Origin: a phage
Assembly: GCA_033648345.1 (NCBI GenBank)
Contig: GCA_033648345.1_4121.1
Length of the DNA: 64,000 nt
Strand: one strand, 5' to 3'
Part shown: positions 10,862 through 22,108 of the stretch, piece by piece
Layout of the letters: every line of letters starts with the position of its first letter
Position numbering within the stretch: the first letter of the stretch is position 1
Position numbers and translations under genes: made by a program
The notes under the pieces: model-generated
Databases searched by the model: none
What the model was told of the DNA's origin: nothing
Seen by the model: only the letters and a program-made list of their open reading frames with translations

Positions 10862-11128
10862 ATGAATATTAAGTATTTTGCGACGCGTGAACAAGCTCGG
10901 ATCGCCGCACGCCAGGACGGGGCAACGTTTAAAGATATGGGCGTACAATCGGAACGTGGTAAACGTTGGGCCATTATAAAGCGTAGTACCGCCAGATCAT
11001 TACAGTACTGGTTAGCGGCGTTAAAAAGTCCCGATAGTGTATCGCGTCGAGTGGTAGAAATAAAGCTCGACCGAAAGGGCAACCGCGTGACCGTGTACCG
11101 TACTAAAAAGATTGCAGTACTTGAATAA
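10862..11128 (+). CDS. Hypothetical early protein; paralog of 23885..24280
   Basis: Shared KYFATREQARIAARQDGATFKDMG and DRKGNRVTVY motifs; start moved to MNIKYF. Confidence 0.65.
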   Translation: MNIKYFATREQARIAARQDGATFKDMGVQSERGKRWAIIKRSTARSLQYWLAALKSPDSVSRRVVEIKLDRKGNRVTVYRTKKIAVLE

Positions 11129-11135
11129 AAAGTAC

Positions 11136-11163
11136 TTGCAAACTATGTTTAATGGCGTATAAT
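11136..11163 (+). promoter_or_regulatory. Class-I early promoter
   Basis: TTGCAA-16-TATAAT. Confidence 0.6.
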
Positions 11164-11215
11164 GTTTTACATCGAGAGCGGGAACACTTCCCGCCTATAA
11201 CCTGGAGTAATAAAA

Positions 11216-11446
11216 ATGACTAATATGTATATGACTGAAGTTAAAACCGTAAAAGATACTACCACGAATAAAACTACTTACTTACAGCGGATCTGCGGTG
11301 TATGGCAACGTATCAGCAAATCAAAGTACTTTAAATTAACATCATATGCAAACCGTTCGGATTCATTCAGTACTGAAATAAAAGGTAATAAAGTACACCA
11401 ATACGGCACTTATTATTATTATAGCCTGGACGCGATTGCAGTATAA
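11216..11446 (+). CDS. Hypothetical early protein (76 aa)
   Basis: ORF after promoter, hairpin and SD GGAGT. Confidence 0.6.
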   Translation: MTNMYMTEVKTVKDTTTNKTTYLQRICGVWQRISKSKYFKLTSYANRSDSFSTEIKGNKVHQYGTYYYYSLDAIAV

Positions 11447-11476
11447 GCAGTTTACAAATCTTTACAATTGCCGGTA

Positions 11477-11505
11477 TTGACTTATTTTGTCAGTACTGGC
11501 ATAAT
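11477..11505 (+). promoter_or_regulatory. Promoter of convergent pair (candidate small-RNA promoter)
   Basis: TTGACT-17-CATAAT; no ORF downstream, followed by the conserved CCCA-GGGTGC leader motif. Confidence 0.5.
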
Positions 11506-11620
11506 GTATTCATTGGCAGATAAGCCGTAGCCCATAGGGTGCGGGAGTGTATCTATAGAAAAAGTAGTTTATTACAGTTACAATTGTGCACCCGGTGGGT
11601 TAGCTGTTGTCATGGGGTAT

Positions 11621-11649
11621 ATTATGCCAGTACTTGATAATGCTGTCAA
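11621..11649 (-). promoter_or_regulatory. Convergent minus-strand promoter
   Basis: Reverse complement reads TTGACA-17-CATAAT and faces the promoter at 11477. Confidence 0.5.
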
Positions 11650-11695
11650 TACTTTTTTTTACTATTCAGTACTGAAAACTATTTTTAAAAAGTAC

Positions 11696-11723
11696 TTGCA
11701 AACTATGTTTAAAGGCGTATAAT
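11696..11723 (+). promoter_or_regulatory. Class-I early promoter (P1 of tandem pair)
   Basis: TTGCAA-16-TATAAT followed by structured leader ACATCAGGACGGGGAACG... Confidence 0.55.
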
Positions 11724-11813
11724 GTTTTACATCAGGACGGGGAACGAAATAAGTAACTCCCCGTTAAGTAGCCCAGGAGTAAGGCACACGAAAAACTCCC
11801 CTGATAAAATAGT

Positions 11814-11841
11814 TTGACAAATGTTTTTAAAAGCGTATAAT
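11814..11841 (+). promoter_or_regulatory. Promoter P2 of tandem pair
   Basis: TTGACA-16-TATAAT. Confidence 0.55.
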
Positions 11842-11873
11842 ACTTACATCAACTACTGAATGAGGGTTACAAA

Positions 11874-12485
11874 ATGAAAACTATCACTACTACTACTTTC
11901 GTTATGGATTTTTCTGAATTGAACGCAGAACAAAAAACGTCAGCTATCGAACTGGTTCGGGAACGTGAAAAAAACTCAAACGACAATTATTTTTCTGAAA
12001 GTGAAATTGAATACTATAAAGAAACAGTACTACCGGAATATGGCATTAATGACGCTGAAATACAATTCAGTGGTTTTTGGTCCCAGGGTGACGGTGCATC
12101 AATCAGTACTGACCACGTTGACGGTGTGAAGTTTTTACGCAAGGTAAGAGCATTAACTAAGTATCGCTCAATCCGTCACTTGCTGAATGAAGATGATTTG
12201 GCGATGAGTGTAAAGCGTTCTCATTCTTTGTACTTGCATGAGAATACTGTAAGCGGGTACATTGAATCGGCTTACACTGATTTAACCGCAAAACAAGAAA
12301 CGTTAGTTAATGAGCTTGAGGAACTACTCACTGAAACTATTCGTGAATTATCCCGCAAGTTGTACCGTGATTTAGAGAATGCATATGAGGATCAATTCAC
12401 TACTGAAAACATCGTATCACTGATTGAGGGTAACGAATATCAATTCAATGTTATTGATGGCGTAGTAGAATCAATCGAATATTAA
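11874..12485 (+). CDS. Hypothetical acidic early protein (203 aa)
   Basis: ORF with upstream tandem promoters; SD GAGGG. Confidence 0.7.
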   Translation: MKTITTTTFVMDFSELNAEQKTSAIELVREREKNSNDNYFSESEIEYYKETVLPEYGINDAEIQFSGFWSQGDGASISTDHVDGVKFLRKVRALTKYRSIRHLLNEDDLAMSVKRSHSLYLHENTVSGYIESAYTDLTAKQETLVNELEELLTETIRELSRKLYRDLENAYEDQFTTENIVSLIEGNEYQFNVIDGVVESIEY

Positions 12486-12497
12486 TTCAAAAAGTAC

Positions 12498-12525
12498 TTG
12501 CAAACTAAGTTTAAAAGCGTATAAT
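12498..12525 (+). promoter_or_regulatory. Class-I early promoter
   Basis: TTGCAA-16-TATAAT. Confidence 0.6.
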
Positions 12526-12575
12526 ACTTTATATCGAGGCGGGGAGTGGTTCCCCGCTCAAACGAGGATTTAAAA

Positions 12576-12815
12576 ATGGCTAGTACTAAAACTTATAACG
12601 GACACAAAAACAAAACTCAATGGAATGTAAGCCTTTGGATTAATAACGGTGAGTCATTGTATCGGCTTGCACAAAGTTGTATCGCACAAAGTAGAACTAA
12701 AGATATTGCAGCGGAATGCATGTACCGCAGATTAAAAGCCAACGGTACTACTACAACGCCGGACGGCTTTAAGTATAGCACTACTGCGATCCGTGCTGCA
12801 ATGGTTGGAATGTAA
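12576..12815 (+). CDS. Hypothetical early protein; paralog of 10537..10776
   Basis: Start moved to MASTKTYNGHK after hairpin GGCGGGGAGTGGTTCCCCGC. Confidence 0.7.
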   Translation: MASTKTYNGHKNKTQWNVSLWINNGESLYRLAQSCIAQSRTKDIAAECMYRRLKANGTTTTPDGFKYSTTAIRAAMVGM

Positions 12816-12873
12816 TATTCAGTACTGTAACAATGGCGGGGAATGGTTCCCGCCTTTATTGAGGGTTTATCTA

Positions 12874-13134
12874 ATGAGTAAAGTAATTAACTATACAGTA
12901 CTAAGCAAGTCATTGTCTATCAGTGAATGCACCGATGGTTTTTGGCTTTATGATGAAACGCGTGGAATGAATTTAGCTATGCGTGTAAAAACTGCTGAGG
13001 CGGCGTATCTTGAGGCACTGGAATACTACCAGGAACGTTTAACGGAAGTAGAAGAAGATTATAAAAGCCTCAAAGCGAAAGTAGATCATTTCGTCGGTCA
13101 ATTCATCGAGGAAGACGACGATAAACAATACTGA
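12874..13134 (+). CDS. Hypothetical early protein (86 aa)
   Basis: Start moved to MSKVINY after hairpin GGCGGGGAATGGTTCCCGCC and SD GAGGG. Confidence 0.6.
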   Translation: MSKVINYTVLSKSLSISECTDGFWLYDETRGMNLAMRVKTAEAAYLEALEYYQERLTEVEEDYKSLKAKVDHFVGQFIEEDDDKQY

Positions 13135-13222
13135 AAAAAAGTACTTGCAATTAGTTTTCAGTACTGTATAATAGTTTACATCAAGTGGAGAAATGGTTCT
13201 CCCTGGTAATGAGGAAAATAAA

Positions 13223-13444
13223 ATGGCTAATATCACTACTCTTTCCCAACTGGAAGCACTGGTTAAATCTATGCGGGAACATGCCGACAAAATCGGCGTA
13301 CAAGATCCAGCCGTTTGCTTCTGCGACGAATTGAATGATGATACCCTTGTAATAGCAGAAGTCCAGGACGTTTCTAACTATTCCTCGCGTTACACTGGCG
13401 GCGTAGCAAATAAAGGCGACTTCTGTTTATACCTTACAAAATAA
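13223..13444 (+). CDS. Hypothetical early protein (73 aa)
   Basis: Start moved to MANITT after hairpin and SD. Confidence 0.6.
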   Translation: MANITTLSQLEALVKSMREHADKIGVQDPAVCFCDELNDDTLVIAEVQDVSNYSSRYTGGVANKGDFCLYLTK

Positions 13445-13449
13445 CAACG

Positions 13450-13480
13450 CGGGGAGATAATAACTCCCCGTTACTTTTTC
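13450..13480 (+). terminator. Rho-independent terminator
   Basis: CGGGGAGATAATAACTCCCCG followed by TTACTTTTT. Confidence 0.6.
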
Positions 13481-13550
13481 AGTACTGAATCATTTAATAG
13501 ACGGATCTATGCACCCGGTGGGTTAGTGACTGTTTCGTCTTGATGTAGTA

Positions 13551-13579
13551 ATTATGCCAGTACTGGATGCAGTTGTCAA
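13551..13579 (-). promoter_or_regulatory. Minus-strand promoter with conserved leader (candidate small RNA)
   Basis: Reverse complement TTGACA-17-CATAAT followed by ACATCAAGACG...CCCACCGGGTGCAT; no ORF. Confidence 0.45.
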
Positions 13580-13612
13580 CAACTATTTTTCAAATACTTT
13601 TTATTAAAATAC

Positions 13613-13640
13613 TTGCAATTAGTTTTTAAACGCGTATAAT
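13613..13640 (+). promoter_or_regulatory. Class-I early promoter
   Basis: TTGCAA-16-TATAAT. Confidence 0.55.
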
Positions 13641-13687
13641 GTTTTGCATAGGGGGAGCGGTTCCCCTGGTAACTAAGGAATAATAAA

Positions 13688-13924
13688 ATGCTTGAACAAA
13701 TCAAATCAACGTCTGCGAATGTAACGGGAACGGTAGCACACTTTACTAGTGATGAATCGCGGGGCGTTCCCTATTGTGCTGTACATGTAAACACTGATGG
13801 CAACTACTGGTTTACGGTTTACGGATCATATTCATTTGGACGGCCTGGGCATCAAAAAATTCTGGATAAAGTACAACCAACGGGTAAAAATATCACTGCC
13901 GAAATGTTTTATAAAAAATCATAA
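13688..13924 (+). CDS. Hypothetical early protein (78 aa)
   Basis: Hairpin GGGGGAGCGGTTCCCC then SD AAGGAA. Confidence 0.65.
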   Translation: MLEQIKSTSANVTGTVAHFTSDESRGVPYCAVHVNTDGNYWFTVYGSYSFGRPGHQKILDKVQPTGKNITAEMFYKKS

Positions 13925-13929
13925 AGTAC

Positions 13930-13957
13930 TTGATAATAGTTTTTAGTACTGTATAAT
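13930..13957 (+). promoter_or_regulatory. Early promoter
   Basis: TTGATA-16-TATAAT. Confidence 0.5.
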
Positions 13958-14008
13958 ATTTTACATCGCAAGGGGGAGCGGTTCCCCCTAGTAACTAAGG
14001 ATAATCAA

Positions 14009-14308
14009 ATGAAAATTGCAATCATCGCCCTGGCTTTATCTGTTTCCTCTTTCGCTGTTAATGCGTCATTAGATGTAAGTAGTGAAAAATTCATTCAGTG
14101 CACTGTTGCAATGACCGATGAAAGAACTGGCGAGATTGTATTAAAGGATTTAGAGATCCAGCCGGAAGCATTTAAAAACGGCCCGTTCCATGAAGAAGAC
14201 GAAAACGGTAGCACAACAATTTATTATGATGCCAGTACTAAACGCGGTTCGGTCACTGTAATGGATACTGAGAAAGTAACTCATACTGGCGTTATTAATT
14301 GCCGTTGA
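14009..14308 (+). CDS. Small secreted/periplasmic protein
   Basis: N-terminal signal-peptide-like MKIAIIALALSVSSFAVNA. Confidence 0.65.
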   Translation: MKIAIIALALSVSSFAVNASLDVSSEKFIQCTVAMTDERTGEIVLKDLEIQPEAFKNGPFHEEDENGSTTIYYDASTKRGSVTVMDTEKVTHTGVINCR

Positions 14309-14329
14309 TAGATACTACGGGGTAACATC

Positions 14330-14560
14330 ATGACTAAGCGAATTGTTTTACTTAACGAAAGCAGTACTACACAACTACTTAACGCCGTGCATTATGATAT
14401 TGAAACGAGCGTTAATCTTATCAGTACTGTAGTACTGTTGGACACTGGAAAGGTCGCCAATGATAAAGCGATTGCAGGTATATTAACGGATCTTGAGCCT
14501 GGTAGCAGTGCACCAATAACGTTAAATGGTAAAGTGTTTAATATTTTACTCACTGATTAA
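14330..14560 (+). CDS. Hypothetical protein (76 aa)
   Basis: ORF closely following upstream gene. Confidence 0.55.
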   Translation: MTKRIVLLNESSTTQLLNAVHYDIETSVNLISTVVLLDTGKVANDKAIAGILTDLEPGSSAPITLNGKVFNILLTD

Positions 14561-14566
14561 GTACAT

Positions 14567-14594
14567 AGCCCACCTGGTGGGCTTTTTTGTTTTT
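14567..14594 (+). terminator. Rho-independent terminator
   Basis: AGCCCACC-TGGTGGGCT followed by TTTTTTGTTTTTG. Confidence 0.75.
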
Positions 14595-14642
14595 GTAGTA
14601 TCGTAGTACTGAGATACTTTGAAAATAGTTTTAAAAAAGTAG

Positions 14643-14670
14643 TTGACATTACCGCAGAAAAGCGTAGAAT
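14643..14670 (+). promoter_or_regulatory. Early promoter
   Basis: TTGACA-16-TAGAAT followed by conserved leader ACATCAAGACGGGGAGC. Confidence 0.5.
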
Positions 14671-14793
14671 GTATTACATCAAGACGGGGAGCACTAAGTA
14701 GACCGCCAGTAAGTCGAACGAAAAACTGGACACGTCGAGAAAACTTTGATACACTAATAAACGTAAACTAAACTTTAATTGAGGATTTATAAA

Positions 14794-15276
14794 ATGGCTA
14801 ATGTAAAATCATTCATCAAAGCACTGGTAGCAAATGAAACTAACGTCGCGGCAGAGATCCTGGCTGAACTGGATAACGATACCATGAAAGCGGTACGCAA
14901 TAATTTTAACATCGCGTACAGTACTGCGAAAGAACTACAAGCAAATAAAGCAGCAGAGATCGAGGCAGCAAAGGCGGCCCGTGAAGCAGAACTACAAGCA
15001 ACAATTGAAAGTATTCAGGCGGCAGTAGTTGGATTGGATCTGGAAGTAGTTACAGAGATGGCACAAAAAGCCCTGGCGAAAAAGTACGGGGAAGACAAGC
15101 CAGAAGTAAAAGCCAAAAAATGGATTCAAGAACGTGTAGCGGTAGTACTTGATAATGGGGAAGAATATCTGATTCCGGTGCGTGGTAACTGCATTGCTGT
15201 AGTACTGGATGCGATTAACTCCAGCGGTATGACTCGCGAGGAATGGATCGAAGCTCATCGCAAAGTGGAAGCATAA
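14794..15276 (+). CDS. Hypothetical protein with Ala/Glu-rich helical segment (160 aa)
   Basis: Start moved to MANVKSF after SD GAGGA. Confidence 0.65.
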   Translation: MANVKSFIKALVANETNVAAEILAELDNDTMKAVRNNFNIAYSTAKELQANKAAEIEAAKAAREAELQATIESIQAAVVGLDLEVVTEMAQKALAKKYGEDKPEVKAKKWIQERVAVVLDNGEEYLIPVRGNCIAVVLDAINSSGMTREEWIEAHRKVEA

Positions 15277-15297
15277 CAATTAAAGTACTGAATCACT

Positions 15298-15325
15298 AGC
15301 CCACTGTATAAGTGGGCTTTTTTGT
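15298..15325 (+). terminator. Rho-independent terminator
   Basis: AGCCCAC-TGTATAA-GTGGGCT followed by TTTTTTG. Confidence 0.75.
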
Positions 15326-15477
15326 GTTTATCGTTTACCAGGCCACCAGCACCGCCTAGAATCGATTCTAACGCATTAAACTGATTATCTGATGCATCGC
15401 CCTAGCTGGTGGAGTTAAGGCCGTTAGAATGCGATTTAGAGCGTTTAAAGTATTTTGCAAAAAGTAATAAAAAGTAC

Positions 15478-15505
15478 TTGCACGATTCAGAGATTAGCGT
15501 ATAAT
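15478..15505 (+). promoter_or_regulatory. Class-I early promoter
   Basis: TTGCAC-16-TATAAT. Confidence 0.5.
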
Positions 15506-15550
15506 GTTTTACATCAAGGCGAAACACCTTAACTAACTGAGGATATAAAG

Positions 15551-15703
15551 ATGAATACTTATGAACTGGATTGTTTCACTATGCAAGTAATGTTAGTATG
15601 CAGTAAAAAAGAATGGTCATCAAAGGAATTTAAAGCAGTTATTGCGTGTGCAAAACACGGCAAGACTATCAATGAAACGGCATCAATCATTGATAAACTT
15701 TAA
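15551..15703 (+). CDS. Small hypothetical protein (50 aa, absent from ORF track)
   Basis: Manual translation MNTYELDCFTMQ... with SD GAGGA. Confidence 0.45.
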   Translation: MNTYELDCFTMQVMLVCSKKEWSSKEFKAVIACAKHGKTINETASIIDKL

Positions 15704-15711
15704 AAAATAGT

Positions 15712-15740
15712 TTGACAATAGTTTTAAGTACTGACATAAT
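15712..15740 (+). promoter_or_regulatory. Class-II early promoter
   Basis: TTGACA-17-CATAAT with AGTACTG before the -10. Confidence 0.6.
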
Positions 15741-15773
15741 ACATACATCAACTACTGAATAGGAATCAAAACA

Positions 15774-16001
15774 ATGGCTATCGTAATCACTCGCGTATCT
15801 GGTACTACTGGCAATTCTTCTACTGTTGCTGTAATTACTAATAAGAAAGGTGCGGAATTACATTTTGCAATGAATACCTGGGCGGTGAATGAGTTCGGTC
15901 AGTGGGCTAGTGTAGAATACATTGAAACCTATCAAGTGCCAACCATTAGCTTAACGGATCTCGGCGTAGATCGTATCTTATGCCTGGATGAATTAAATTA
16001 A
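15774..16001 (+). CDS. Hypothetical early protein (75 aa)
   Basis: ORF after promoter; SD AGGAA. Confidence 0.65.
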   Translation: MAIVITRVSGTTGNSSTVAVITNKKGAELHFAMNTWAVNEFGQWASVEYIETYQVPTISLTDLGVDRILCLDELN

Positions 16002-16008
16002 AAAAGTA

Positions 16009-16037
16009 CTTGCAAAGTAAATCAAATAAAGTATAAT
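16009..16037 (+). promoter_or_regulatory. Class-I early promoter
   Basis: TTGCAA-17-TATAAT; hairpin GGGGAGAAATGGTTCTCCCC at 16050-16069. Confidence 0.6.
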
Positions 16038-16086
16038 ACATTACATCAAGGGGAGAAATGGTTCTCCCCACTACAAGGAAACTAAA

Positions 16087-16230
16087 ATGAAAACTTGTCA
16101 ATGTGGTCAGAAATCTATTACGGGTTTAAAGCGGGGCGTTGCTCTTTGCCAGTACCATTATAATTTACAAGTATGGGGTAAAGAATGGGCCGACCAGGTG
16201 GAAGCAGCAAAGAAAGCAAAAAGTAAGTAA
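16087..16230 (+). CDS. Small Cys-containing (zinc-ribbon-like) protein (47 aa, absent from ORF track)
   Basis: Manual translation MKTCQCGQKS...CQYH with SD AAGGAA. Confidence 0.5.
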   Translation: MKTCQCGQKSITGLKRGVALCQYHYNLQVWGKEWADQVEAAKKAKSK

Positions 16231-16311
16231 AAATATTATCACAGTACTATTGACATAGTTTGATAGTACTGGCATAATAGATTTTATCAAGACAACTAAG
16301 AGGAAACAATA
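16221..16311 (+). repeat. Duplicated ~91-bp promoter cassette (copy 1)
   Basis: Near-identical to 16515..16605; contains TTGACA-17-CATAAT and SD AAGAGGAAA. Confidence 0.8.
16250..16278 (+). promoter_or_regulatory. Class-II early promoter
   Basis: TTGACA-17-CATAAT. Confidence 0.6.
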
Positions 16312-16524
16312 ATGGCTATCATCACAAAAATCAAAGTAAACAAATCACTGGTTAAGCTGGAAGAAGTGAAAGAAGGTTATAAAGTATCGTGGTGCGGCAT
16401 GTATCGGATTTTTACAGATGTTGACGATGCAATCAATTACTACACTGACACGGTAAAAAACTTTGTTCGTGCTGATGTGGTTATGGCAGTGGCAACACAC
16501 AAAGCATCGAAAGAAAGTAAGTAA
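16312..16524 (+). CDS. Hypothetical early protein (70 aa)
   Basis: ORF downstream of duplicated promoter cassette. Confidence 0.65.
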   Translation: MAIITKIKVNKSLVKLEEVKEGYKVSWCGMYRIFTDVDDAINYYTDTVKNFVRADVVMAVATHKASKESK

Positions 16525-16605
16525 AAATATTATCACAGTACTATTGACATAGTTTGATAGTACTGGCATAATAGATTTTATCAAGACAACTAAGAGGAAA
16601 TTAAA
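16515..16605 (+). repeat. Duplicated ~91-bp promoter cassette (copy 2)
   Basis: Near-identical to 16221..16311. Confidence 0.8.
16544..16572 (+). promoter_or_regulatory. Class-II early promoter
   Basis: TTGACA-17-CATAAT. Confidence 0.6.
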
Positions 16606-16950
16606 ATGGCTAACATCAACACTATCGCAGCACAAAATATCAACCTGTCTTCTGTTGAAGTTGTACATATTGCCGCTCGGCGTTGGTTCCAGGCTTCATA
16701 TGGTAACACTTATTTCTCTTTAAGTGTAGACGTAGAAATTGATGGTAATTTTATTGAAGTAGTAAACGTGCCGTTCCAATATGGATACGGGGATCATTTT
16801 GACACTGTAGCAATGGAAGAATTTAGCAAGGTTATTAATATGGAAGGTAAAGAGTTTTTACGCGGTTCTTATCTTTCACGTTTTTGCCGTGATAATAATA
16901 TCACTGTTTACAGTTCGGTAACTGATGTTAAACGCAAAAAAGATCTTTAA
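16606..16950 (+). CDS. Hypothetical early protein; paralog of 23466..23789
   Basis: Shared GNTY...F.YGYG...DVKRKKD motifs. Confidence 0.7.
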   Translation: MANINTIAAQNINLSSVEVVHIAARRWFQASYGNTYFSLSVDVEIDGNFIEVVNVPFQYGYGDHFDTVAMEEFSKVINMEGKEFLRGSYLSRFCRDNNITVYSSVTDVKRKKDL

Positions 16951-17030
16951 TTAGCTTTACTTTATGCAGATACTTTGATATAGTGTCTGCATAGGGGAAA
17001 GAAATTAAATTAACTTAAGAGGATAGTATA

Positions 17031-17300
17031 ATGAAAAATATCAGTACTTTAATTGATGCAGGTACACATGTTCGGCGGTCTATGGTTGCAACCAGTACTA
17101 CAAAACAAGTAGCAAGCGGTTATCTTGTATTTGTGCACGATGGAAAACTCCTGGAACGTTCAATCAATTTTGATGTTAAAAACAATTGCCGTTTTATTAT
17201 TTTTAAGCGTGAACAATATAAAATTGATTTACCAGCGAAGCCCATTAGCGGGGCGTATAACGTCTATTCATTGTTTGAGCGTCAACCATACACCTATTAA
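17031..17300 (+). CDS. Hypothetical protein (89 aa)
   Basis: SD AAGAGGA; upstream inverted repeat TGCAGA...TCTGCA. Confidence 0.6.
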   Translation: MKNISTLIDAGTHVRRSMVATSTTKQVASGYLVFVHDGKLLERSINFDVKNNCRFIIFKREQYKIDLPAKPISGAYNVYSLFERQPYTY

Positions 17301-17351
17301 TCAAAACATCGTTAGCGGTCGATTTAGGCCGCTTATATTGGGGATTATACC

Positions 17352-17624
17352 ATGAACGTTAATCAAGTACTGAATGAGATCGAAAGCATCATTAAACCAA
17401 TGAAACGCATTGATGCTATGTTAACACCGGAAGAATGCCGCCTTTATGAGCGTTACAGCGTCGAACAAGTCCAGGCAATGGCTATGGCTACCCCAGCCGT
17501 TAAACAGCCTGAGAACGCGTTACAGGACGTTACAGGGGATTATATCATCAATCCAGTACTAGGGAAGATGGCGGCAATCACCGAAGATCAACAAGACTAC
17601 TTAAGCCAGTACTTAAAAGGTTAA
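17352..17624 (+). CDS. Hypothetical protein (90 aa)
   Basis: ORF with SD GGGGA. Confidence 0.6.
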   Translation: MNVNQVLNEIESIIKPMKRIDAMLTPEECRLYERYSVEQVQAMAMATPAVKQPENALQDVTGDYIINPVLGKMAAITEDQQDYLSQYLKG

Positions 17625-17629
17625 TTAAT

Positions 17630-17839
17630 ATGCTTACTGTACAGGATAAGATCGACATCTTAAAGGTTAATATGTATGTGATTGATGCCGTACCTGGTAA
17701 AGTATTTGCATACGATGACACTACTGTAAGCGATTTCTACTATAGCCAGGCCGTGGGGGATCTTTCTGTACAGTCGGTTATTGAAAACGTAGTTAATGCA
17801 GCGTATGAGCATTTACTTTCAAATAGTACTTGCAATTAG
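17630..17839 (+). CDS. Hypothetical protein (69 aa)
   Basis: ORF whose 3' end overlaps the next promoter. Confidence 0.55.
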   Translation: MLTVQDKIDILKVNMYVIDAVPGKVFAYDDTTVSDFYYSQAVGDLSVQSVIENVVNAAYEHLLSNSTCN

Positions 17840-17857
17840 TTTTTAAACGCGTATAAT
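17830..17857 (+). promoter_or_regulatory. Class-I early promoter
   Basis: TTGCAA-16-TATAAT; hairpin GGGGAGAAATGATTCTCCCC follows. Confidence 0.6.
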
Positions 17858-17908
17858 GTTTTACATGAAGGGGAGAAATGATTCTCCCCACTAATTAAGG
17901 AATATGAA

Positions 17909-18055
17909 ATGAAAGCATCAAAAAAGAGTAATACTAAGAAAGCACGTTCACCTTTCGCTGGGGTATTCCCTTTACGTTTCGTTGATGAAGTGGTTTCCTA
18001 CCCGCCGGGCCTTACTCCTGAGATGGTAGAAAGTTTGCGTAAATCTAAAAAATAG
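17909..18055 (+). CDS. Small basic protein (48 aa, absent from ORF track)
   Basis: Manual translation MKASKKSNTKKARSPFAG... with SD AAGGAA. Confidence 0.5.
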   Translation: MKASKKSNTKKARSPFAGVFPLRFVDEVVSYPPGLTPEMVESLRKSKK

Positions 18056-18058
18056 TAC

Positions 18059-18086
18059 TTGCAATTAGTTTTTAAACGCGTATAAT
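18059..18086 (+). promoter_or_regulatory. Class-I early promoter
   Basis: TTGCAA-16-TATAAT; hairpin at 18099-18118. Confidence 0.6.
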
Positions 18087-18136
18087 GTTTTACATAGAGG
18101 GGAGAAATGGTTCTCCCCAATAACAGGAGAATCAAA

Positions 18137-18289
18137 ATGAAACAATACAATGCTCGGTTTGATGTTACTATCGGCAACGGCAAAGGTCAATTTTCTTTCA
18201 GTACTCGCCGCAGTTATACAGAAAACTTCCTGCGTAATTGTGCACTGACCGCCGCACAAATTAAACATTACTTCCAGGCTAAAAAATGA
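18137..18289 (+). CDS. Small hypothetical protein (50 aa)
   Basis: Start moved to MKQYNARF after SD AGGAGAA. Confidence 0.6.
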   Translation: MKQYNARFDVTIGNGKGQFSFSTRRSYTENFLRNCALTAAQIKHYFQAKK

Positions 18290-18375
18290 AATCATTAGCT
18301 TATTACAGTTCAGCGGTGATCGGTGCATTGATCGCGGCATTGTTAGTAACCTATCTATTCTTTATGGTGATTTAA
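18286..18375 (+). CDS. Tiny hydrophobic membrane peptide (29 aa)
   Basis: ATGA-coupled ORF MKSLAYYSSAVIGALIAALLVTYLFFMVI; a single TM-length hydrophobic stretch. Confidence 0.45.
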   Translation: MKSLAYYSSAVIGALIAALLVTYLFFMVI

Positions 18376-18510
18376 ATGAATCCTAACGGTTTAATTTACA
18401 GTACTCCTAAAACGAAAGCAGATAAAGCGAAAGCACGTAAAGCGAAAGTAAAGGAGTACATTAAGCAAGGCATGACGCGAAAGGCGGCAGTACTGAAAGC
18501 TAAAAAATAA
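18376..18510 (+). CDS. Small Lys-rich basic protein (44 aa)
   Basis: Manual translation MNPNGLIYSTPKTKADKAKARKAKVKEY... Confidence 0.45.
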   Translation: MNPNGLIYSTPKTKADKAKARKAKVKEYIKQGMTRKAAVLKAKK

Positions 18511-18520
18511 ATGAAAAAAG

Positions 18521-18550
18521 TGGTTGACTTCGGTCAGCCATTTTGCTATT
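18521..18550 (+). terminator. Rho-independent terminator
   Basis: TGGTTGAC-TTCG-GTCAGCCA followed by TTTTGCTATTAT. Confidence 0.7.
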
Positions 18551-18645
18551 ATATATTCATTGAGAGATAGCTCACTAGCCCACCGGGTGCATAAGTGTAT
18601 CTATTATATAAGTATTGAGTACTGAAAACTATTTTTAAAAAGTAC

Positions 18646-18673
18646 TTGCAAACTATCTCAATAAGCGTATAAT
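18646..18673 (+). promoter_or_regulatory. Class-I early promoter
   Basis: TTGCAA-16-TATAAT. Confidence 0.6.
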
Positions 18674-18724
18674 GTTTTACATCGAAAGGGGAAACGGTTT
18701 CCCCTGGTAATAAGGAAACAAATC

Positions 18725-19066
18725 ATGACTATTGCAATTGCTCAATCTAACTTTGAAAATGAAATCATCGCCCAGGCACTGCGTTTAAATGATGGTCGGG
18801 CCGAAATTAATTACGGTTTCAATTCAGGCGGTTGTGAAAAATATCAGTACTTTGTAACTGCTGATGGCGGTGTCCTGGGCATCAATACCGTTATTGTAAA
18901 CATTCAGAAAATTAATTTCAATGATCCAGACGATAGCCAGTTTTACATTGTAGGCGTAGACGTGAACTATGAGGATGACTCACTAACTGATGATCACACT
19001 GGCGAGCGGTTAGAAAGTGCATACGGTGAAGATGATTATCAGTCCGGTCCAGAAGATTTCGAATAA
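18725..19066 (+). CDS. Hypothetical acidic protein (113 aa)
   Basis: ORF after promoter, hairpin GGGGAAACGGTTTCCCC and SD AAGGAA. Confidence 0.7.
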   Translation: MTIAIAQSNFENEIIAQALRLNDGRAEINYGFNSGGCEKYQYFVTADGGVLGINTVIVNIQKINFNDPDDSQFYIVGVDVNYEDDSLTDDHTGERLESAYGEDDYQSGPEDFE

Positions 19067-19079
19067 TATAAAAAATAGT

Positions 19080-19107
19080 TTGACAATAGATTATAGTACT
19101 GTATAAT
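19080..19107 (+). promoter_or_regulatory. Class-II early promoter
   Basis: TTGACA-16-TATAAT. Confidence 0.6.
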
Positions 19108-19157
19108 TAATTACATCAAGGGGAGAATAGTTCTCCCCAACTAAGAGGAAAAAGAAA

Positions 19158-19340
19158 ATGGCTGAATTAATCGCTCGGAATACAATTGCAGGCGTTGAAG
19201 ATGTAACATTATCATATGATTCAGATAAACAAGTTTACGTCGTTCGTTATGGTCTGATTGGTGTTAACGTTGATTATATTGATGAAGCCTTTGAAAAATA
19301 CTTTGAATTTATTAATATGGCTTATAATGATTATCGTTAA
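19158..19340 (+). CDS. Hypothetical early protein (60 aa)
   Basis: Promoter, hairpin GGGGAGAATAGTTCTCCCC, SD AAGAGGA. Confidence 0.65.
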   Translation: MAELIARNTIAGVEDVTLSYDSDKQVYVVRYGLIGVNVDYIDEAFEKYFEFINMAYNDYR

Positions 19341-19348
19341 AAAATAGT

Positions 19349-19376
19349 TTGACAATAGATTATAGTACTGTATAAT
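19349..19376 (+). promoter_or_regulatory. Class-II early promoter
   Basis: TTGACA-16-TATAAT. Confidence 0.6.
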
Positions 19377-19430
19377 AGTTTACATCAAGGGGAGAAAAAC
19401 TTCTCCCCACTAACAGAGAGAGAAAACAAA

Positions 19431-19643
19431 ATGGCTAATATCTGCACTGTACTGAAAAATGCAAAACAAGTTTTATTTTCTGATCACGATCATTTAAACA
19501 AGGATATTACGGGCGTTCGGAATATCAAAGATGTAAAAAGTGTTATGGGTATCTATTGCAATATGAAACGTGTCGGCACGTTCGGCGATAAAGTACTATA
19601 CCAGGCAGGGGATTATAACTTCACATTAACCATCATCAATTAA
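19431..19643 (+). CDS. Hypothetical early protein (70 aa)
   Basis: Promoter, hairpin GGGGAGAAAAACTTCTCCCC, SD. Confidence 0.65.
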   Translation: MANICTVLKNAKQVLFSDHDHLNKDITGVRNIKDVKSVMGIYCNMKRVGTFGDKVLYQAGDYNFTLTIIN

Positions 19644-19733
19644 AATATATTACCAGTACTATTGACAACGTTTGATAGTACTGTATAATAAGTTTTATAA
19701 ACAGTAGTTAACTTAACCTAAGAGAGAAACAAA

Positions 19734-19877
19734 ATGATCGCACTGGATTCATTCATCGACGCAGTACTGGCAAAAACTGGCGAGGATCTGACCGCAGAAC
19801 AATACGCGATGATCGAGCAATGTCAGCAAAACGGTAAATCGGTGAAAGATACTGTTAAGATTATCCGCAAGATGTAA
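19734..19877 (+). CDS. Small hypothetical protein (47 aa, absent from ORF track)
   Basis: Manual translation MIALDSFIDAVLAKTGEDL... after class-II promoter near 19663. Confidence 0.5.
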   Translation: MIALDSFIDAVLAKTGEDLTAEQYAMIEQCQQNGKSVKDTVKIIRKM

Positions 19878-19883
19878 TATTAT

Positions 19884-19912
19884 AGCCCACTGGTTAACGC
19901 TGGTGGGCTTTA
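19884..19912 (+). terminator. Terminator-like hairpin
   Basis: AGCCCAC-12 nt-GTGGGCT followed by TTTAATCATTT. Confidence 0.5.
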
Positions 19913-19976
19913 ATCATTTACCCTATACAATGCCAGTACTCAACCGTTTATCTCGTTAGAATGCGTTACAGGACGT

Positions 19977-20180
19977 TTGACAATGATTAGCATGAAATCA
20001 GTACAAAAACAAATAGAAACATTATCAAAAATTAAACGTAAACAATACTCCTTAGAATATACAATCAATGGTAACTATCATCTAATGAAAGAAAATAATT
20101 TTATAGTCATTGATGAATCATTGCAAATTATTAGTATAGTACTGAAAGCATTAATCAATGACAGAAAAAAATTAAAATAA
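19977..20180 (+). CDS. Hypothetical AT-rich ORF (67 aa)
   Basis: Track ORF; weak SD, so low confidence. Confidence 0.35.
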   Translation: MTMISMKSVQKQIETLSKIKRKQYSLEYTINGNYHLMKENNFIVIDESLQIISIVLKALINDRKKLK

Positions 20181-20183
20181 TTG

Positions 20184-20212
20184 TTGACATACAATGCCAG
20201 TACTGGCATAAT
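20184..20212 (+). promoter_or_regulatory. Promoter with conserved leader (candidate small RNA)
   Basis: TTGACA-17-CATAAT followed by ACATCAAGACGAGAACGTCACTAACCCATAGGGTGCACAAATGTAACTAT; no ORF for ~300 bp. Confidence 0.5.
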
Positions 20213-20274
20213 ACTTACATCAAGACGAGAACGTCACTAACCCATAGGGTGCACAAATGTAACTATATAATATC

Positions 20275-20347
20275 GATCAATAAATGATCAAAAAAGTACT
20301 GGATCAATTTAGCATAAGGAGTATAATTCTGATCAATTCTTGATCAA
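20275..20347. repeat. Cluster of five GATCAA sites including palindrome TTGATCAA
   Basis: GATCAA at 20275, 20286, 20302, 20331, 20342 upstream of the TraR-like gene. Confidence 0.7.
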
Positions 20348-20508
20348 AGGCAATATACGCAGTTGAATTTATATAGACAGTACAAAGGCGTTACTATCCG
20401 TGGTAATGCTGGTGGATATGTAGTATCATATGGTTTGAATAAGATTAGCACTAGTAGTATTATTGTAGCATTACAGTACTATAGTATTTTTATAATGAGG
20501 TTAAAATA

Positions 20509-20766
20509 ATGGCTGTTGGATTCGCGAAGGACGGGGCCGAGCAAGACGAGATTAACGCAGTGATTCAGGCCGCTGTAAACCACGCTAGAAAGCAAATTAA
20601 CGCACAAAGAGAATCACTGGTACATTGCCTCGACTGCGGCGATAAAATCCCTGAGAATCGACGCCAGGCCGTTATAGGGTGCATGTATTGTATTACTTGC
20701 CAGGAGGATCATGATAGTACTTTTAAAAGAGATCCGCGTAATTGTTGGCATAGATCTATGAGATAA
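20509..20766 (+). CDS. TraR/DksA-family C4 zinc-finger protein
   Basis: RKQINA...HCLDCGDKIPENRR...CMYCITCQ fits the TraR pattern C-x2-CG-x-IPE-x-RR ... C-x2-CQ. Confidence 0.8.
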   Translation: MAVGFAKDGAEQDEINAVIQAAVNHARKQINAQRESLVHCLDCGDKIPENRRQAVIGCMYCITCQEDHDSTFKRDPRNCWHRSMR

Positions 20767-20773
20767 AAAGTAA

Positions 20774-20801
20774 TTGACAGTACTGAAAGATAGTGTATAA
20801 T
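20774..20801 (+). promoter_or_regulatory. Early promoter with extended -10
   Basis: TTGACA-16-TGTATAAT. Confidence 0.6.
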
Positions 20802-20830
20802 GTTTTATATCTTAACTGAGGATTGAAATC

Positions 20831-21187
20831 ATGGGTATTCAACACATCACGCGTACTACTGACAATGGCGAGATCACTGGTTATCAGGTACAGGGCAAAG
20901 TAGCACAATTGCAGTACTGGTTTGTTAAACGTGGAATCATTGCACCGGATCTTGATTATGACCGTGTAGCGTTTATTGATTCTCTTTATGTTGATCCTGA
21001 TAGTCGGGGCAATGGTGAAGGTAACGAATTAATGAATGCCTTTATTGATGCCGCCGATGATTCAGATTGTATCATCTTAGAATGCGATACGGGAGAAGAT
21101 AACGCCTTTAATCTTAAAGAATGGTACGAAGGCTTCGGATTCGAGGTATTGATAGATAGTGAATATCCTATCATGATTTTATCATAG
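20831..21187 (+). CDS. Putative GNAT-like acetyltransferase (weak)
   Basis: VDPDSRGNGEGNELMNAF resembles the GNAT acetyl-CoA-binding motif; 118 aa. Confidence 0.45.
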   Translation: MGIQHITRTTDNGEITGYQVQGKVAQLQYWFVKRGIIAPDLDYDRVAFIDSLYVDPDSRGNGEGNELMNAFIDAADDSDCIILECDTGEDNAFNLKEWYEGFGFEVLIDSEYPIMILS

Positions 21188-21190
21188 TAC

Positions 21191-21219
21191 TTGCATTTAG
21201 TTTTCAGTACTGTTATAGT
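21191..21219 (+). promoter_or_regulatory. Early promoter
   Basis: TTGCAT-17-TATAGT; hairpin GGGGAAACATCTTCCCC follows. Confidence 0.5.
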
Positions 21220-21266
21220 ACTTGCATCAAGGGGAAACATCTTCCCCTACTAAGAGGAAATAAAAA

Positions 21267-21455
21267 ATGGAAAACTTATCAAGTATTTTAGTACAAGATG
21301 ATTTCGGTAATCCTGGAAGTGCTATCATTGTTCGGGGCAATAAAGCAACGTTTGTTATTGCTGGTGGACCCGTACAGCGTAGCATTAAAAATAATGCTGT
21401 TACCATTAATAATGTACGCTATCGCTTAGATAAAGAATTAATTCATAAACTGTAA
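21267..21455 (+). CDS. Hypothetical early protein (62 aa)
   Basis: ORF with SD AAGAGGAAA. Confidence 0.6.
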   Translation: MENLSSILVQDDFGNPGSAIIVRGNKATFVIAGGPVQRSIKNNAVTINNVRYRLDKELIHKL

Positions 21456-21482
21456 TATTAATTTAATAGAGGATAACAATAA

Positions 21483-21806
21483 ATGTACATTCATACTACT
21501 ATCACAAAGGAAGTCCGTTGCCAGTTCGAAAGTATTCCGGGCGTATGTTTCATCACTGGTACGTTTTCCCCTGGTGATCGTGATAATCCAGTACTGTTAC
21601 AATTACGCCATCCATCATGGGATAAAGCATTTGATCTACCGTTGAATGAATTCGCAACTACTGCTGAAAAGTACATTAAAAATATTCGCGAGAATGATCG
21701 ACTATTCATTAATGCTTTTAGTGATTCCGCGTTAAGCGAGATCCACGGCGTATTGGTTGCAATCATGGAATCAATGCAGAAAACTAAATTCAAACAAGGT
21801 GAATAA
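21483..21806 (+). CDS. Hypothetical protein (107 aa)
   Basis: ORF with SD AGAGGA. Confidence 0.6.
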   Translation: MYIHTTITKEVRCQFESIPGVCFITGTFSPGDRDNPVLLQLRHPSWDKAFDLPLNEFATTAEKYIKNIRENDRLFINAFSDSALSEIHGVLVAIMESMQKTKFKQGE

Positions 21807-21812
21807 AAACTA

Positions 21813-22102: not shown

Positions 22103-22108
22103 AAAGTA

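What the first reader, a model, noticed from the sequence alone, without database searches (positions are those of the whole stretch)
16221..16605. Duplicated promoter-SD cassettes serving unrelated genes
Near-identical ~90-bp cassettes (promoter, leader, SD, ATGGCTA start) occur at 16221..16311 and 16515..16605, at 23107..23199 and 23377..23468, and at 24593..24652 and 24869..24929. Each pair sits in front of different coding sequences. This suggests promoter modules are copied as units, possibly by recombination at the conserved leader, or that new genes were captured behind pre-existing cassettes.
Basis: seen in the sequence. Interest (0 to 1): 0.45.

Follow-up and report, generated by a model that had tools for sequence, protein, structure and literature searches.

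The report
Shuffling promoter cassettes in jumbo phage
The duplicated stretches are real copies of strong early-gene promoter cassettes in a giant E. coli phage; they also act as portable homology that lets small genes of unknown function be inserted, deleted and re-ordered, a mechanism already described in T4-type phages.

Summary
Observation confirmed. All three pairs exist at the stated coordinates (about 96%, 98% and 82-85% identity over 70-100 bp). Similarity stops within about 10 nt of the start codon, and the proteins within each pair are unrelated.

The window comes from an Asteriusvirus, a 121Q/PBECO4/phAPEC6-like jumbo coliphage of about 350 kb. The pairs are the closest members of an array of about 43 sigma-70 consensus promoter cassettes at 8.6-29 kb, all on the + strand, each in front of a small gene of unknown function. 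There are five adjacent best-match pairs, not three.

For each reported pair, at least one relative has a single (pair 3: demonstrably chimeric) cassette and lacks the gene in between. Crossovers map inside the -35 box (SP27) and at the SD-ATG (E9.1), so recombination is general, not site-specific. The same genes and cassettes occur in a different order in rV5-like phages.

This matches PeSL-mediated modular shuffling described for T4-type phages, here in another lineage and without sequence homology to RB49/phi1 cassettes. I file it as a new member of a known kind, of modest interest.

Side observation: AGTACT is the commonest hexamer in the window (286 sites, 19 expected). It is conserved and sits at two fixed positions in the cassettes. 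It is unexplained.

The parts
8682..28900 (+). Array of about 43 sigma-70-type early promoter cassettes, each in front of a small ORF. Compositionally distinct early region (GC 0.36-0.40, against 0.30-0.35 elsewhere).
16219..16311 (+). Cassette 1a. It contains the stop codon of the 144-bp gene, an AT-rich tract, TTGACA-N17-(TGG)CATAAT, a leader and SD AAGAGGAAA. The promoter lies inside a roughly 60-nt inverted repeat (CAGTACTAT...ATAGTACTG core).
   Evidence: fold -19.5 kcal/mol, z -4.25
16312..16524 (+). g1, a 70-aa ORFan (phrog_35559, unknown function) flanked by cassettes 1a and 1b. Absent from ph0011, SP27, phAPEC6 and G17. Present in 21 phage records, including three Vequintavirinae.
16513..16605 (+). 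Cassette 1b, about 96% identical to 1a. It overlaps the last 12 nt of g1.
16606..16950 (+). g1d, a 114-aa ORFan (phrog_6246). Unrelated to g1. Distant paralog of g2d. Replaced by a 324-bp allele in G17 and Turkey5.
23111..23196 (+). Cassette 2a: TTGACA-N16-TATAAT (12/12 consensus), leader hairpin GAGGGGAA-ACGG-TTCCCCTC, and SD.
23197..23379 (+). g2, a 60-aa Cys-rich ORFan (phrog_8738). Absent from phAPEC6, which has one cassette. Present in 38 records, including rV5/phi92-like phages.
23382..23465 (+). Cassette 2b, identical to 2a except for a 2-bp indel. It carries the 2a-type hairpin loop, unlike the orthologous b copy in ph0011. This indicates gene conversion in this lineage.
23466..23789 (+). 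g2d, a 107-aa ORFan (phrog_6246), paralog of g1d (31% identity, E 3e-10).
24583..24649 (+). Cassette 3a: TTGACA-N17-TATTAT with a short leader. No significant stem-loop (z +0.36).
24650..24868 (+). g3, a 72-aa ORF. Its ortholog in Turkey5 is annotated 'transcriptional regulator'. Absent from SP27. Present in 27 records.
24859..24926 (+). Cassette 3b (TTGACA-N17-TACTAT), 82-85% identical to 3a.
24927..25169 (+). g3d, an 80-aa ORFan, unrelated to g3.
17820..18136 (+).
   Evidence: (D1)
19069..19430 (+). A fifth adjacent pair: cassettes at 19080 and 19349, flanking ORF 19158-19340. This ORF is absent from all five jumbo relatives compared; in phAPEC6 a single shared cassette (97 bp of junction overlap) replaces it.
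16001..16086 (+). Hairpin-type cassette in front of the 144-bp gene. In phage E9.1 this same cassette drives g1 instead.

Best explanation
The repeats are copies of a composite early-gene regulatory cassette of an Asteriusvirus jumbo coliphage. A cassette runs from the upstream gene's stop codon through an AT-rich tract, a near-consensus sigma-70 -35/-10 promoter (often with an extended -10), usually a stem-loop, and a Shine-Dalgarno sequence, to the ATG (often ATGGCT).

Each cassette is predicted to let host RNA polymerase transcribe one small early gene straight after infection. About 43 copies lie head-to-tail in one region, so they also provide 60-100 bp of portable homology. General homologous or microhomology recombination between two copies deletes the gene between them and leaves one chimeric cassette. 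The reverse reaction, or recombination with a co-infecting phage or an excised circle, inserts a [gene + cassette] unit and creates an adjacent near-identical pair. Gene conversion between neighbours keeps some pairs almost identical. The likely enzymes are the phage's own T4-type UvsX/UvsW/SSB machinery.

Shown here: the repeat structure; promoter consensus; stem-loop covariation; single (pair 3: chimeric) cassettes in relatives; crossover positions; the same gene behind different cassettes; patchy and re-ordered gene distribution across two phage lineages; purifying selection on cassettes.

Inferred: promoter activity; which recombination enzymes act; the direction of each event (insertion or deletion); circular intermediates; the role of the leader hairpin. 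For the hairpin I favour 5'-end mRNA stabilisation or attenuation of read-through.
For: Identity of the source.

Repeat boundaries.

Junction alignments:
- Pair 1: ph0011, SP27 and phAPEC6 have a single cassette.
- Pair 2: phAPEC6 has a single cassette with a 2a-type left flank and a 2b-type hairpin loop.
- Pair 3: SP27 has a chimera with the crossover in TTGACAGTACTCAA.
- In E9.1, g1 is fused to the 16010-type cassette at AGGAAAC.A.AATG.

The 228-bp to 270-bp interval has five different gene arrangements among seven genomes.

Of 39 unique indel breakpoints against five relatives, 24 fall in cassettes, against 24% expected (p = 6e-7). Many junctions carry 55-119 bp of overlapping homology.

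No within-pair protein similarity.

Adjacent cassettes are each other's best match far more often than chance.

Cassette core identity to relatives is 0.956, against 0.890 at third codon positions.

22 of 43 cassettes have a 6-9 bp GGGG...CCCC stem-loop starting 8-14 nt after the -10, with GC-to-AT compensatory changes.

In the Vequintavirinae phage A7_1 the shared block is exactly cassette-g1-cassette (w16247-16585), with different neighbours, and other shared genes are in a different order.

phAPEC6 encodes a UvsX-like RecA, a UvsW helicase and an SSB.

The anatomy and the indel pattern match the published description of PeSLs (PMC2839356; PMC4122927).
Against: No transcription or recombination experiment is available, so promoter activity and the hairpin's function are inferred from sequence.

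Breakpoint enrichment in intergenic DNA is partly expected anyway, because only indels that preserve genes survive.

The identity switch between the window and E9.1 lies in the last ~60 nt of g1, not strictly inside cassette 1b. So not every exchange uses the cassette.

One adjacent pair (17830/18059) flanks a gene present in all five relatives.

Pair 3 has no stem-loop. Most leader hairpins lack a T-tract, so they are not canonical terminators.

The direction of each event (insertion or deletion) cannot be decided from these data.
Confidence: 0.78

Rival explanations
1. Ordinary tandem gene duplications: each pair is a duplicated promoter plus gene whose coding parts have since diverged.
For: The pairs are adjacent and direct. 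Short similarity extends about 8 nt into the ORFs of pair 1.
Against: BLASTP finds no within-pair similarity. The genes belong to different PHROG families. DNA identity falls from 96-100% to background within about 10 nt, which is incompatible with uniform divergence. Relatives lack exactly one gene plus one cassette.
Confidence: 0.03
2. Selection on function plus local gene conversion only. The cassettes are similar because strong promoters converge on one optimum and neighbours homogenise each other. They play no role in moving genes, and the indels arise by unrelated illegitimate events that survive only in intergenic DNA.
For: Cassettes are under purifying selection. Window copy 2b carries a 2a-type loop, unlike its ortholog in ph0011, which is a conversion signature. 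Intergenic breakpoints are expected from survivorship.
Against: Junctions in relatives are precise single cassettes with 55-119 bp of homology to both window copies. SP27's cassette is a clean 3a/3b chimera. Non-consensus positions (spacer, leader) are identical within pairs. The block shared with a different phage subfamily is exactly cassette-gene-cassette.
Confidence: 0.12
3. A site-specific cassette system, integron-like or endonuclease-driven. A dedicated phage enzyme recognises a fixed site in the cassette (for example the AGTACT palindrome) and catalyses or triggers insertion and excision.
For: AGTACT lies at fixed positions in about three quarters of the cassettes and inside the SP27 crossover interval. 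The motif is hyper-abundant and conserved.
Against: Crossovers map to different places: the -35 box in SP27, the SD-ATG in E9.1, and a region upstream of the hairpin loop in phAPEC6. No integrase, recombinase or homing endonuclease is annotated in 25-31 kb of four relatives. AGTACT is also abundant inside genes, where no indels end. Cassettes in the Vequintavirinae phage lack AGTACT yet flank the same genes.
Confidence: 0.07

Closest known systems
PeSLs (promoter-early stem-loop cassettes) of T4-type phages RB49/phi1, T4/PST and KVP40/nt-1 (Arbiol et al. 2010, PMC2839356; Comeau et al. 2014, PMC4122927)
   Same: Same anatomy: upstream stop codon, AT-rich tract, sigma-70 consensus -35/-10, a stem-loop often GGGG...CCCC at variable positions, SD and ATG, in all about 100 bp. 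Many copies lie in ORFan-rich hyperplastic regions. A gene flanked by two cassettes in one phage corresponds to a single chimeric cassette in a close relative. Crossovers fall at various points between the AT-rich tract and the ATG.
   Different: Different phage lineage: Asteriusvirus, a RaK2-like jumbo phage, plus rV5-like Vequintavirinae. BLAST finds no similarity to RB49/phi1 cassettes. The commonest stem-loop position here is in the transcribed leader, 8-14 nt after the -10, and lacks a T-tract. AGTACT is embedded at fixed positions. Mini-circles and terminator activity, shown experimentally for RB49/phi1, are untested here.
Morons of lambdoid phages (Hendrix et al. 2000, as discussed in PMC2839356)
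   Same: Single accessory genes that bring their own promoter and are patchily distributed among relatives.
   Different: Morons are thought to insert by illegitimate recombination without conserved flanking repeats, are often in the opposite orientation, and carry their own terminator. Here the genes are co-oriented, are flanked by a repeated cassette that supplies the homology, and mostly lack terminators.
Integron gene cassettes
   Same: Arrays of small, promoter-proximal, interchangeable ORFs separated by repeated recombination sites. Circular intermediates are postulated.
   Different: Integrons use a dedicated tyrosine recombinase, attC/attI sites and a single common promoter. Here every gene has its own promoter, no recombinase is nearby, and the crossover sites vary.
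RpoD-like early promoters with UP elements in the related jumbo phage CBB (PMC5259590)
   Same: Same phage clade. Sigma-70-like promoters with UP-like elements are concentrated in a region of short hypothetical genes and in the terminal repeat.
   Different: That paper predicts only 18 promoters and does not describe the stem-loops, the cassette repeats or their role in indels.

Membership tests
PeSL cassettes (T4-type phages) | Sigma-70 consensus -35 and -10 boxes (early promoter) | tested here: met
   About 43 sites TTG(A/C)(C/A)N-N16-18-TATAAT-like at 8.6-29 kb. Ten are perfect 12/12 matches at 14-27.5 kb, all on the + strand.
PeSL cassettes (T4-type phages) | AT-rich tract upstream of -35 that holds the stop codon of the upstream gene | tested here: met
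   AAAAAGTAC / TAAAAAATAGT tracts precede the -35. Pair 1 begins at ...AGTAAGTAA, the stop of the upstream gene.
PeSL cassettes (T4-type phages) | Stable stem-loop, often polyG...polyC, at a variable position relative to the promoter | tested here: met
   22 of 43 cassettes have a 6-9 bp GGGG...CCCC hairpin 8-14 nt after the -10, with compensatory changes. Pair 2 has it. Pair 1 instead has an AT-rich inverted repeat spanning -35/-10 (z -4.25). Pair 3 has none (z +0.36). So the feature is met for the family but not for every copy.
PeSL cassettes (T4-type phages) | Shine-Dalgarno sequence and start codon of the downstream gene at the 3' end | tested here: met
PeSL cassettes (T4-type phages) | Gene flanked by two cassettes in one genome corresponds to a single chimeric cassette in a close relative | tested here: met
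   A single cassette replaces all three reported pairs and pair 19080/19349 in at least one relative; for pair 3 it is demonstrably chimeric.
PeSL cassettes (T4-type phages) | Concentration in hyperplastic, ORFan-rich regions | tested here: met
   The flanked genes fall in PHROGs of unknown function or none. Five arrangements of one interval occur among seven genomes.
PeSL cassettes (T4-type phages) | Stem-loop acts as a transcription terminator or attenuator | not testable with these tools
   Most leader hairpins have no T-tract, and the terminator scan does not call them. A reporter assay is needed.
PeSL cassettes (T4-type phages) | Recombination between neighbouring cassettes yields mini-circles during infection | not testable with these tools
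   Needs inverse PCR or long-read sequencing of infected cells.
PeSL cassettes (T4-type phages) | Sequence homology to RB49/phi1 PeSLs, or residence in a T4-like (Tevenvirinae-type) genome | tested here: not met
   BLAST of a cassette hits Asteriusvirus, other RaK2-like jumbo phages and rV5-like phages, and none of the T4-type phages. The source taxonomy is Asteriusvirus. It therefore works like a PeSL but is an analogue in another lineage.
Tandem gene duplication | Similarity continues through the coding regions | tested here: not met
Integron-like site-specific cassettes | Fixed crossover site and an adjacent dedicated recombinase | tested here: not met
   Crossovers lie at the -35, at the SD-ATG and upstream of the hairpin loop. 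No recombinase is annotated in the relatives' early regions; that part rests on annotation only.

The most novel reading that the evidence does not exclude
The cassettes may belong to a lineage-specific system built on the palindrome AGTACT. This hexamer is the commonest in the window, about 15 times expectation, occurs in all reading frames, and is 25-100 times denser than in E. coli. It is more conserved than other hexamers, and it sits either on the 5' edge of the -35 box or against the extended -10 in about three quarters of the cassettes.

The most novel reading is that a phage-encoded (or hijacked) dimeric protein recognises AGTACT. It could use the site to switch the whole early promoter array off or on, to mark phage DNA as self, or to nick there and so stimulate the recombination that shuffles the cassettes. 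The SP27 crossover interval contains an AGTACT.
Probability: 0.2. Interest if true: 0.65.

Novelty: new member of a known kind. Interest (0 to 1): 0.3.

Why it matters
It extends promoter-cassette-mediated gene shuffling beyond the T4-type phages where it was defined. It now covers the RaK2/121Q-like jumbo phages and, through shared cassettes and genes, the rV5-like phages. That gives a concrete route by which small host-takeover genes move within and between phage lineages that infect E. coli.

In practice it explains why the early regions of otherwise about 95%-identical therapeutic jumbo coliphages differ gene by gene. It also supplies about 40 natural, very strong sigma-70 promoter/leader modules for testing.

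It does not open a new kind of biology. The AGTACT hyper-abundance found in passing is the less expected item.

Tried and rejected
1. Tandem gene duplication: rejected, no within-pair protein similarity.

2. Known RNA families or tRNAs in the cassettes or the ORF-less modules: none.

3. A MAFFT plus RNAalifold consensus of the leader hairpins was uninformative, because differing loop lengths misaligned the stems. I replaced it with a hairpin-anchored tabulation.

4. Pfam on ten flanked or flanking proteins gave only a ParE-like hit for 24342-24596. PHROGs gave families of unknown function. So gene function does not help explain the pairs.

5. I expected the window/E9.1 identity switch to lie inside cassette 1b. 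It lies about 20-60 nt upstream, in the 3' end of g1, so I do not claim that every exchange uses the cassette.

6. Literature searches for PeSL-like elements in Asteriusvirus, RaK2-like or rV5-like phages, and for AGTACT enrichment, found nothing specific.

7. The AGTACT-free islands (30-34 kb and 38-44 kb) turned out to be Asteriusvirus DNA that varies among relatives. There was no clear foreign origin, so I did not pursue them.

8. I did not use the large protein-homology, structure-prediction or metagenome tools. The question was settled at the DNA level.

Full report
SOURCE AND CONTEXT

Megablast of 15400-19400 hits 73 phage records. The best hits are 348-386 kb Escherichia phages of the genus Asteriusvirus (ph0011, SP27, G17, phAPEC6, 121Q, PBECO4 and others) at 90-95% identity, with only 54-88% of the query covered. 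The incomplete coverage already points to indels.

In the annotated relatives the region is a run of co-oriented 45-165-aa 'hypothetical protein' genes. In relatives whose termini were determined it lies in the long direct terminal repeat: vB_Ec-M-J carries that annotation, and records of 367-386 kb hold two copies.

The window has no tRNA and no Rfam family. The early region at 8-30 kb has a higher GC content (0.36-0.40) than the rest of the window (0.30-0.35).

Global alignments and the repeat finder confirm the three pairs:
- Pair 1: 16219-16318 against 16513-16612, about 96% identical.
- Pair 2: 23111-23203 against 23382-23472, identical apart from a 2-bp indel.
- Pair 3: 24583-24652 against 24859-24929, 82-85% identical.

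The boundaries are sharp. On the left the repeat starts in the last codons or stop codon of the upstream gene. On the right it ends at the ATG or within about 8 nt after it.

'ATGGCTA' holds for pairs 1 and 2 only.

The proteins behind each pair are unrelated: BLASTP with word size 2 finds nothing significant. They fall in different PHROG families of unknown function.

THE PAIRS BELONG TO A MUCH LARGER FAMILY

A pattern scan finds about 43 cassettes on the + strand between 8.6 and 29 kb, and almost none elsewhere. The independent promoter scan finds ten perfect 12/12 TTGACA-N16/17-TATAAT sites at 14-27.5 kb, all on the + strand.

A cassette has these elements in order:
- the upstream stop codon;
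- an A-rich tract;
- the -35 box (TTGACA or TTGCAA);
- a 16-17 nt spacer, often ending in TG;
- the -10 box (TATAAT or CATAAT);
- a conserved initial transcribed sequence (GTTTTACATCAAG);
- usually a stem-loop;
- an SD sequence;
- the ATG, often as ATGGCT.

22 of the 43 cassettes carry a 6-9 bp GGGG...CCCC stem-loop that starts 8-14 nt after the -10. Pair types vary in a compensatory way, GC to AT at stem positions 4, 7 and 8.

The three reported pairs differ in structure. Pair 2 has the GC hairpin. The pair-1 promoter is instead embedded in a roughly 60-nt inverted repeat (-19.5 kcal/mol, z -4.25, 0 of 200 shuffles fold as well). Pair 3 has no significant structure.

Only about seven canonical terminators lie in the 13.5 kb scanned, and the leader hairpins lack T-tracts.

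Median pairwise identity among cassettes is about 0.6. Five adjacent reciprocal-best pairs stand out: the three reported plus 17830/18059 and 19080/19349. Ten cassettes have an immediate neighbour as best match, against about 2 expected, and only 4 of 5000 permutations reach that.

COMPARISON WITH RELATIVES

Local BLAST of 14-27.5 kb against ph0011, SP27, G17 and phAPEC6, and later Turkey5 and E9.1, shows collinear blocks of 91-98% identity interrupted by gene-sized indels. At many junctions the two neighbouring BLAST segments overlap by 55-119 bp in one genome. That means a single cassette in one genome matches both copies in the other.

Base-level alignments show the following:
- Pair 1: ph0011, SP27 and phAPEC6 go straight from the 144-bp gene through one cassette into the 345-bp gene. 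G17 has one cassette followed by a different 324-bp gene. Turkey5 has both cassettes, g1 and the 324-bp gene.
- Pair 2: phAPEC6 has one cassette, with the 2a left flank and the 2b-type hairpin loop and gene.
- Pair 3: SP27 has one cassette that is 3a-type up to the -35 and 3b-type afterwards. This places the crossover inside TTGACAGTACTCAA.
- E9.1 lacks the 144-bp gene and cassette 1a. There g1 is fused at AGGAAAC.A.AATG to the hairpin-type cassette that drives the 144-bp gene in the window. So the same gene is served by two different promoters in two genomes.

The interval between the 228-bp and 270-bp genes has five arrangements among seven genomes.

Across five relatives, 24 of 39 unique breakpoints fall in cassettes as I defined them, against 24% of the sequence (binomial p = 6e-7). 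Several of the rest lie just outside my boundaries.

Caveat: survivorship alone would enrich intergenic breakpoints. The junction homology and the chimeric cassettes are the stronger evidence.

Not every exchange uses a cassette. The switch from about 85% to about 99% identity to E9.1 lies in the last ~60 nt of g1.

DISTRIBUTION OF THE FLANKED GENES

- g1 is found in 21 records at only 82-91% identity, although its neighbour g1d is 99.6% identical to E9.1.
- g2 is found in 38 records.
- g3 is found in 27 records.

All of them also occur in 137-151 kb rV5/phi92-like phages (Vequintavirinae, Justusliebigvirus).

In the Vequintavirinae phage A7_1 the block shared with the window is exactly cassette-g1-cassette (w16247-16585, 87% identity), with different neighbours. 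Other shared genes lie in a different order. A7_1 has the same cassette architecture, including the GC leader hairpin and ATGGCTA.

The cassette sequence itself gives 9-24 BLAST places per Asteriusvirus genome. It gives weaker hits in RaK2, K64-1, 7t3 and Hallingskeid, and none in T4-type phages.

SELECTION AND CONVERSION

Cassette cores are 95.6% identical to the relatives, leaders 94.1%, and third codon positions 89.0%. So the cassettes are constrained.

Window copy 2b carries the 2a-type loop (GGGGAAACGG), whereas the orthologous b copies in ph0011 and phAPEC6 read GGGG-AATGG. This is a gene-conversion signature, and it explains why pair 2 is nearly perfect in this genome.

MECHANISM

Shown: the repeated composite promoter cassettes; the indels bounded by them, with a chimeric cassette in SP27 for pair 3; variable crossover points; interchangeable promoter-gene linkage.

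Inferred:
- The cassettes are strong host-RNA-polymerase early promoters.
- Recombination is general. It is probably carried out by the phage's T4-type UvsX, UvsW and SSB set, which phAPEC6 encodes. In T4 this machinery needs less than 50 bp of homology (stated in PMC2839356).
- Insertion across lineages needs a circular [gene + cassette] intermediate or copy-choice, because both crossovers must use the same resident cassette.
- The leader hairpin, which starts at about +5 of the predicted transcript, most likely protects the 5' end of the mRNA or attenuates read-through. The protective role of 5'-terminal stem-loops in E. coli is from my own knowledge, not tested here.

COMPARISON WITH KNOWN SYSTEMS

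The anatomy and the indel pattern match PeSLs, the promoter-early stem-loop cassettes of RB49/phi1 (PMC2839356) and of T4/PST and KVP40/nt-1 (PMC4122927). The published description covers:
- the stop codon, AT-rich tract, sigma-70 boxes, a stem-loop at five possible positions (generally GGGG...CCCC), SD and ATG;
- about 100 bp of conservation;
- ORFan-rich hyperplastic regions;
- an ORF flanked by two PeSLs in one phage against a single chimeric PeSL in the other;
- crossovers between the -10 and the ATG, between the SD and the -10, or in the loop.

Two features are untestable here: terminator activity and mini-circles.

One feature is tested and not met: sequence homology with the T4-type cassettes, or residence in a T4-type genome. 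So this works like a PeSL and is best called a PeSL-type cassette in another lineage.

I found no paper describing this for Asteriusvirus, RaK2-like or rV5-like phages. The CBB paper notes only clustered RpoD-like promoters with UP elements.

VERDICT

It is a new member of a known kind, and interest is modest (0.3).

SIDE OBSERVATIONS

1. AGTACT is the most frequent hexamer in the window: 286 sites against 19.5 expected.
- It is usually found as CAGTACTG.
- It occurs in all three reading frames (61, 48 and 71 sites).
- Its density is about 6 per kb in the early regions of five relatives, 1.56 per kb in the phAPEC6 core-gene region (78 sites against 14 expected), 0.06 per kb in E. coli K-12, and 0.49 per kb in the Vequintavirinae locus that shares the same genes.
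- Sites are fully conserved in 94% of comparisons, against 78% for other hexamers.
- In cassettes it occupies two fixed positions, on the 5' edge of the -35 or against the extended -10.
- It is unexplained. HIP1 of cyanobacteria is the nearest analogue.

2. Nine ORF-less promoter-led modules share an invariant CCCAnnGGGTGC core. Some are convergent and mutually complementary.

Noticed in passing
whole window; dense at 1-29.6 kb, none at 30-34 kb and 38-44 kb: The palindrome AGTACT (usually CAGTACTG) is the commonest hexamer in the window: 286 sites against 19.5 expected. It occurs in all three reading frames. Sites are fully conserved in 94% of comparisons with five relatives, against 78% for other hexamers. 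Density is about 6 per kb in Asteriusvirus early regions, 1.6 per kb in phAPEC6 core genes, 0.06 per kb in E. coli K-12, and not enriched in the Vequintavirinae locus that shares the same genes. In cassettes it sits at two fixed positions, overlapping the 5' edge of the -35 or abutting the extended -10. No literature was found; it resembles the HIP1 phenomenon of cyanobacteria.
   Followed up: partly
window + strand about 11477, 18524, 20184, 22527, 25805, 28256; - strand about 13579, 11649, 9704: ORF-less modules: a promoter-like TTGAC(T/A)-N17-TATTAT/CATAAT followed by about 60 nt with an invariant CCCAnnGGGTGC core. In the TATTAT type the -35 lies inside a GC hairpin that also looks like an intrinsic terminator. 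The copies at 11477(+) and 11649(-) are convergent and mutually complementary. No Rfam match. They may be small RNAs or terminator-promoter junction elements.
   Followed up: partly
window 16606-16950 and 23466-23789: The two 'downstream' genes of pairs 1 and 2 are distant paralogs of each other (31% identity, E 3e-10; both phrog_6246; both end DVKRKKD[LM]). G17 and Turkey5 carry a 324-bp allele at the first locus. Homologs occur in 142 phage records, mostly rV5/phi92-like.
   Followed up: partly
window 24342-24596 and 24650-24868: ORF 24342-24596 has a ParE-like toxin domain (PF24732, E 4.6e-11). The next gene, g3 of pair 3, is annotated 'transcriptional regulator' in phage Turkey5 and is missing from SP27. 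This may be a toxin-partner pair in which the partner is dispensable.
   Followed up: no
L005 (Escherichia phage A7_1, Vequintavirinae) 2250-7450, against window 10.5-19.5 kb: A 145-kb rV5-like phage of a different subfamily shares at least eight of these small early genes and the cassette architecture at 68-90% nucleotide identity, but in a different order. This implies exchange of early-gene modules between phage lineages that infect E. coli.
   Followed up: partly
window about 8.6-29.7 kb: The cassette array corresponds to the region annotated or duplicated as the long direct terminal repeat in relatives: vB_Ec-M-J carries a 'Direct Terminal Repeats' feature, and records of 367-386 kb hold two copies. 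Its GC content is higher (0.36-0.40) than the rest of the window (0.30-0.35). So the strong early promoters lie in the terminally redundant DNA.
   Followed up: no
window 11660-11852 against 22620-22817; 18504-18731 against 25783-26016 and 22506-22704: Longer multi-element repeats (two consecutive cassettes, or terminator + conserved module + promoter) recur 3-11 kb apart at 75-88% identity. Recombination between them would delete or invert multi-gene blocks.
   Followed up: no
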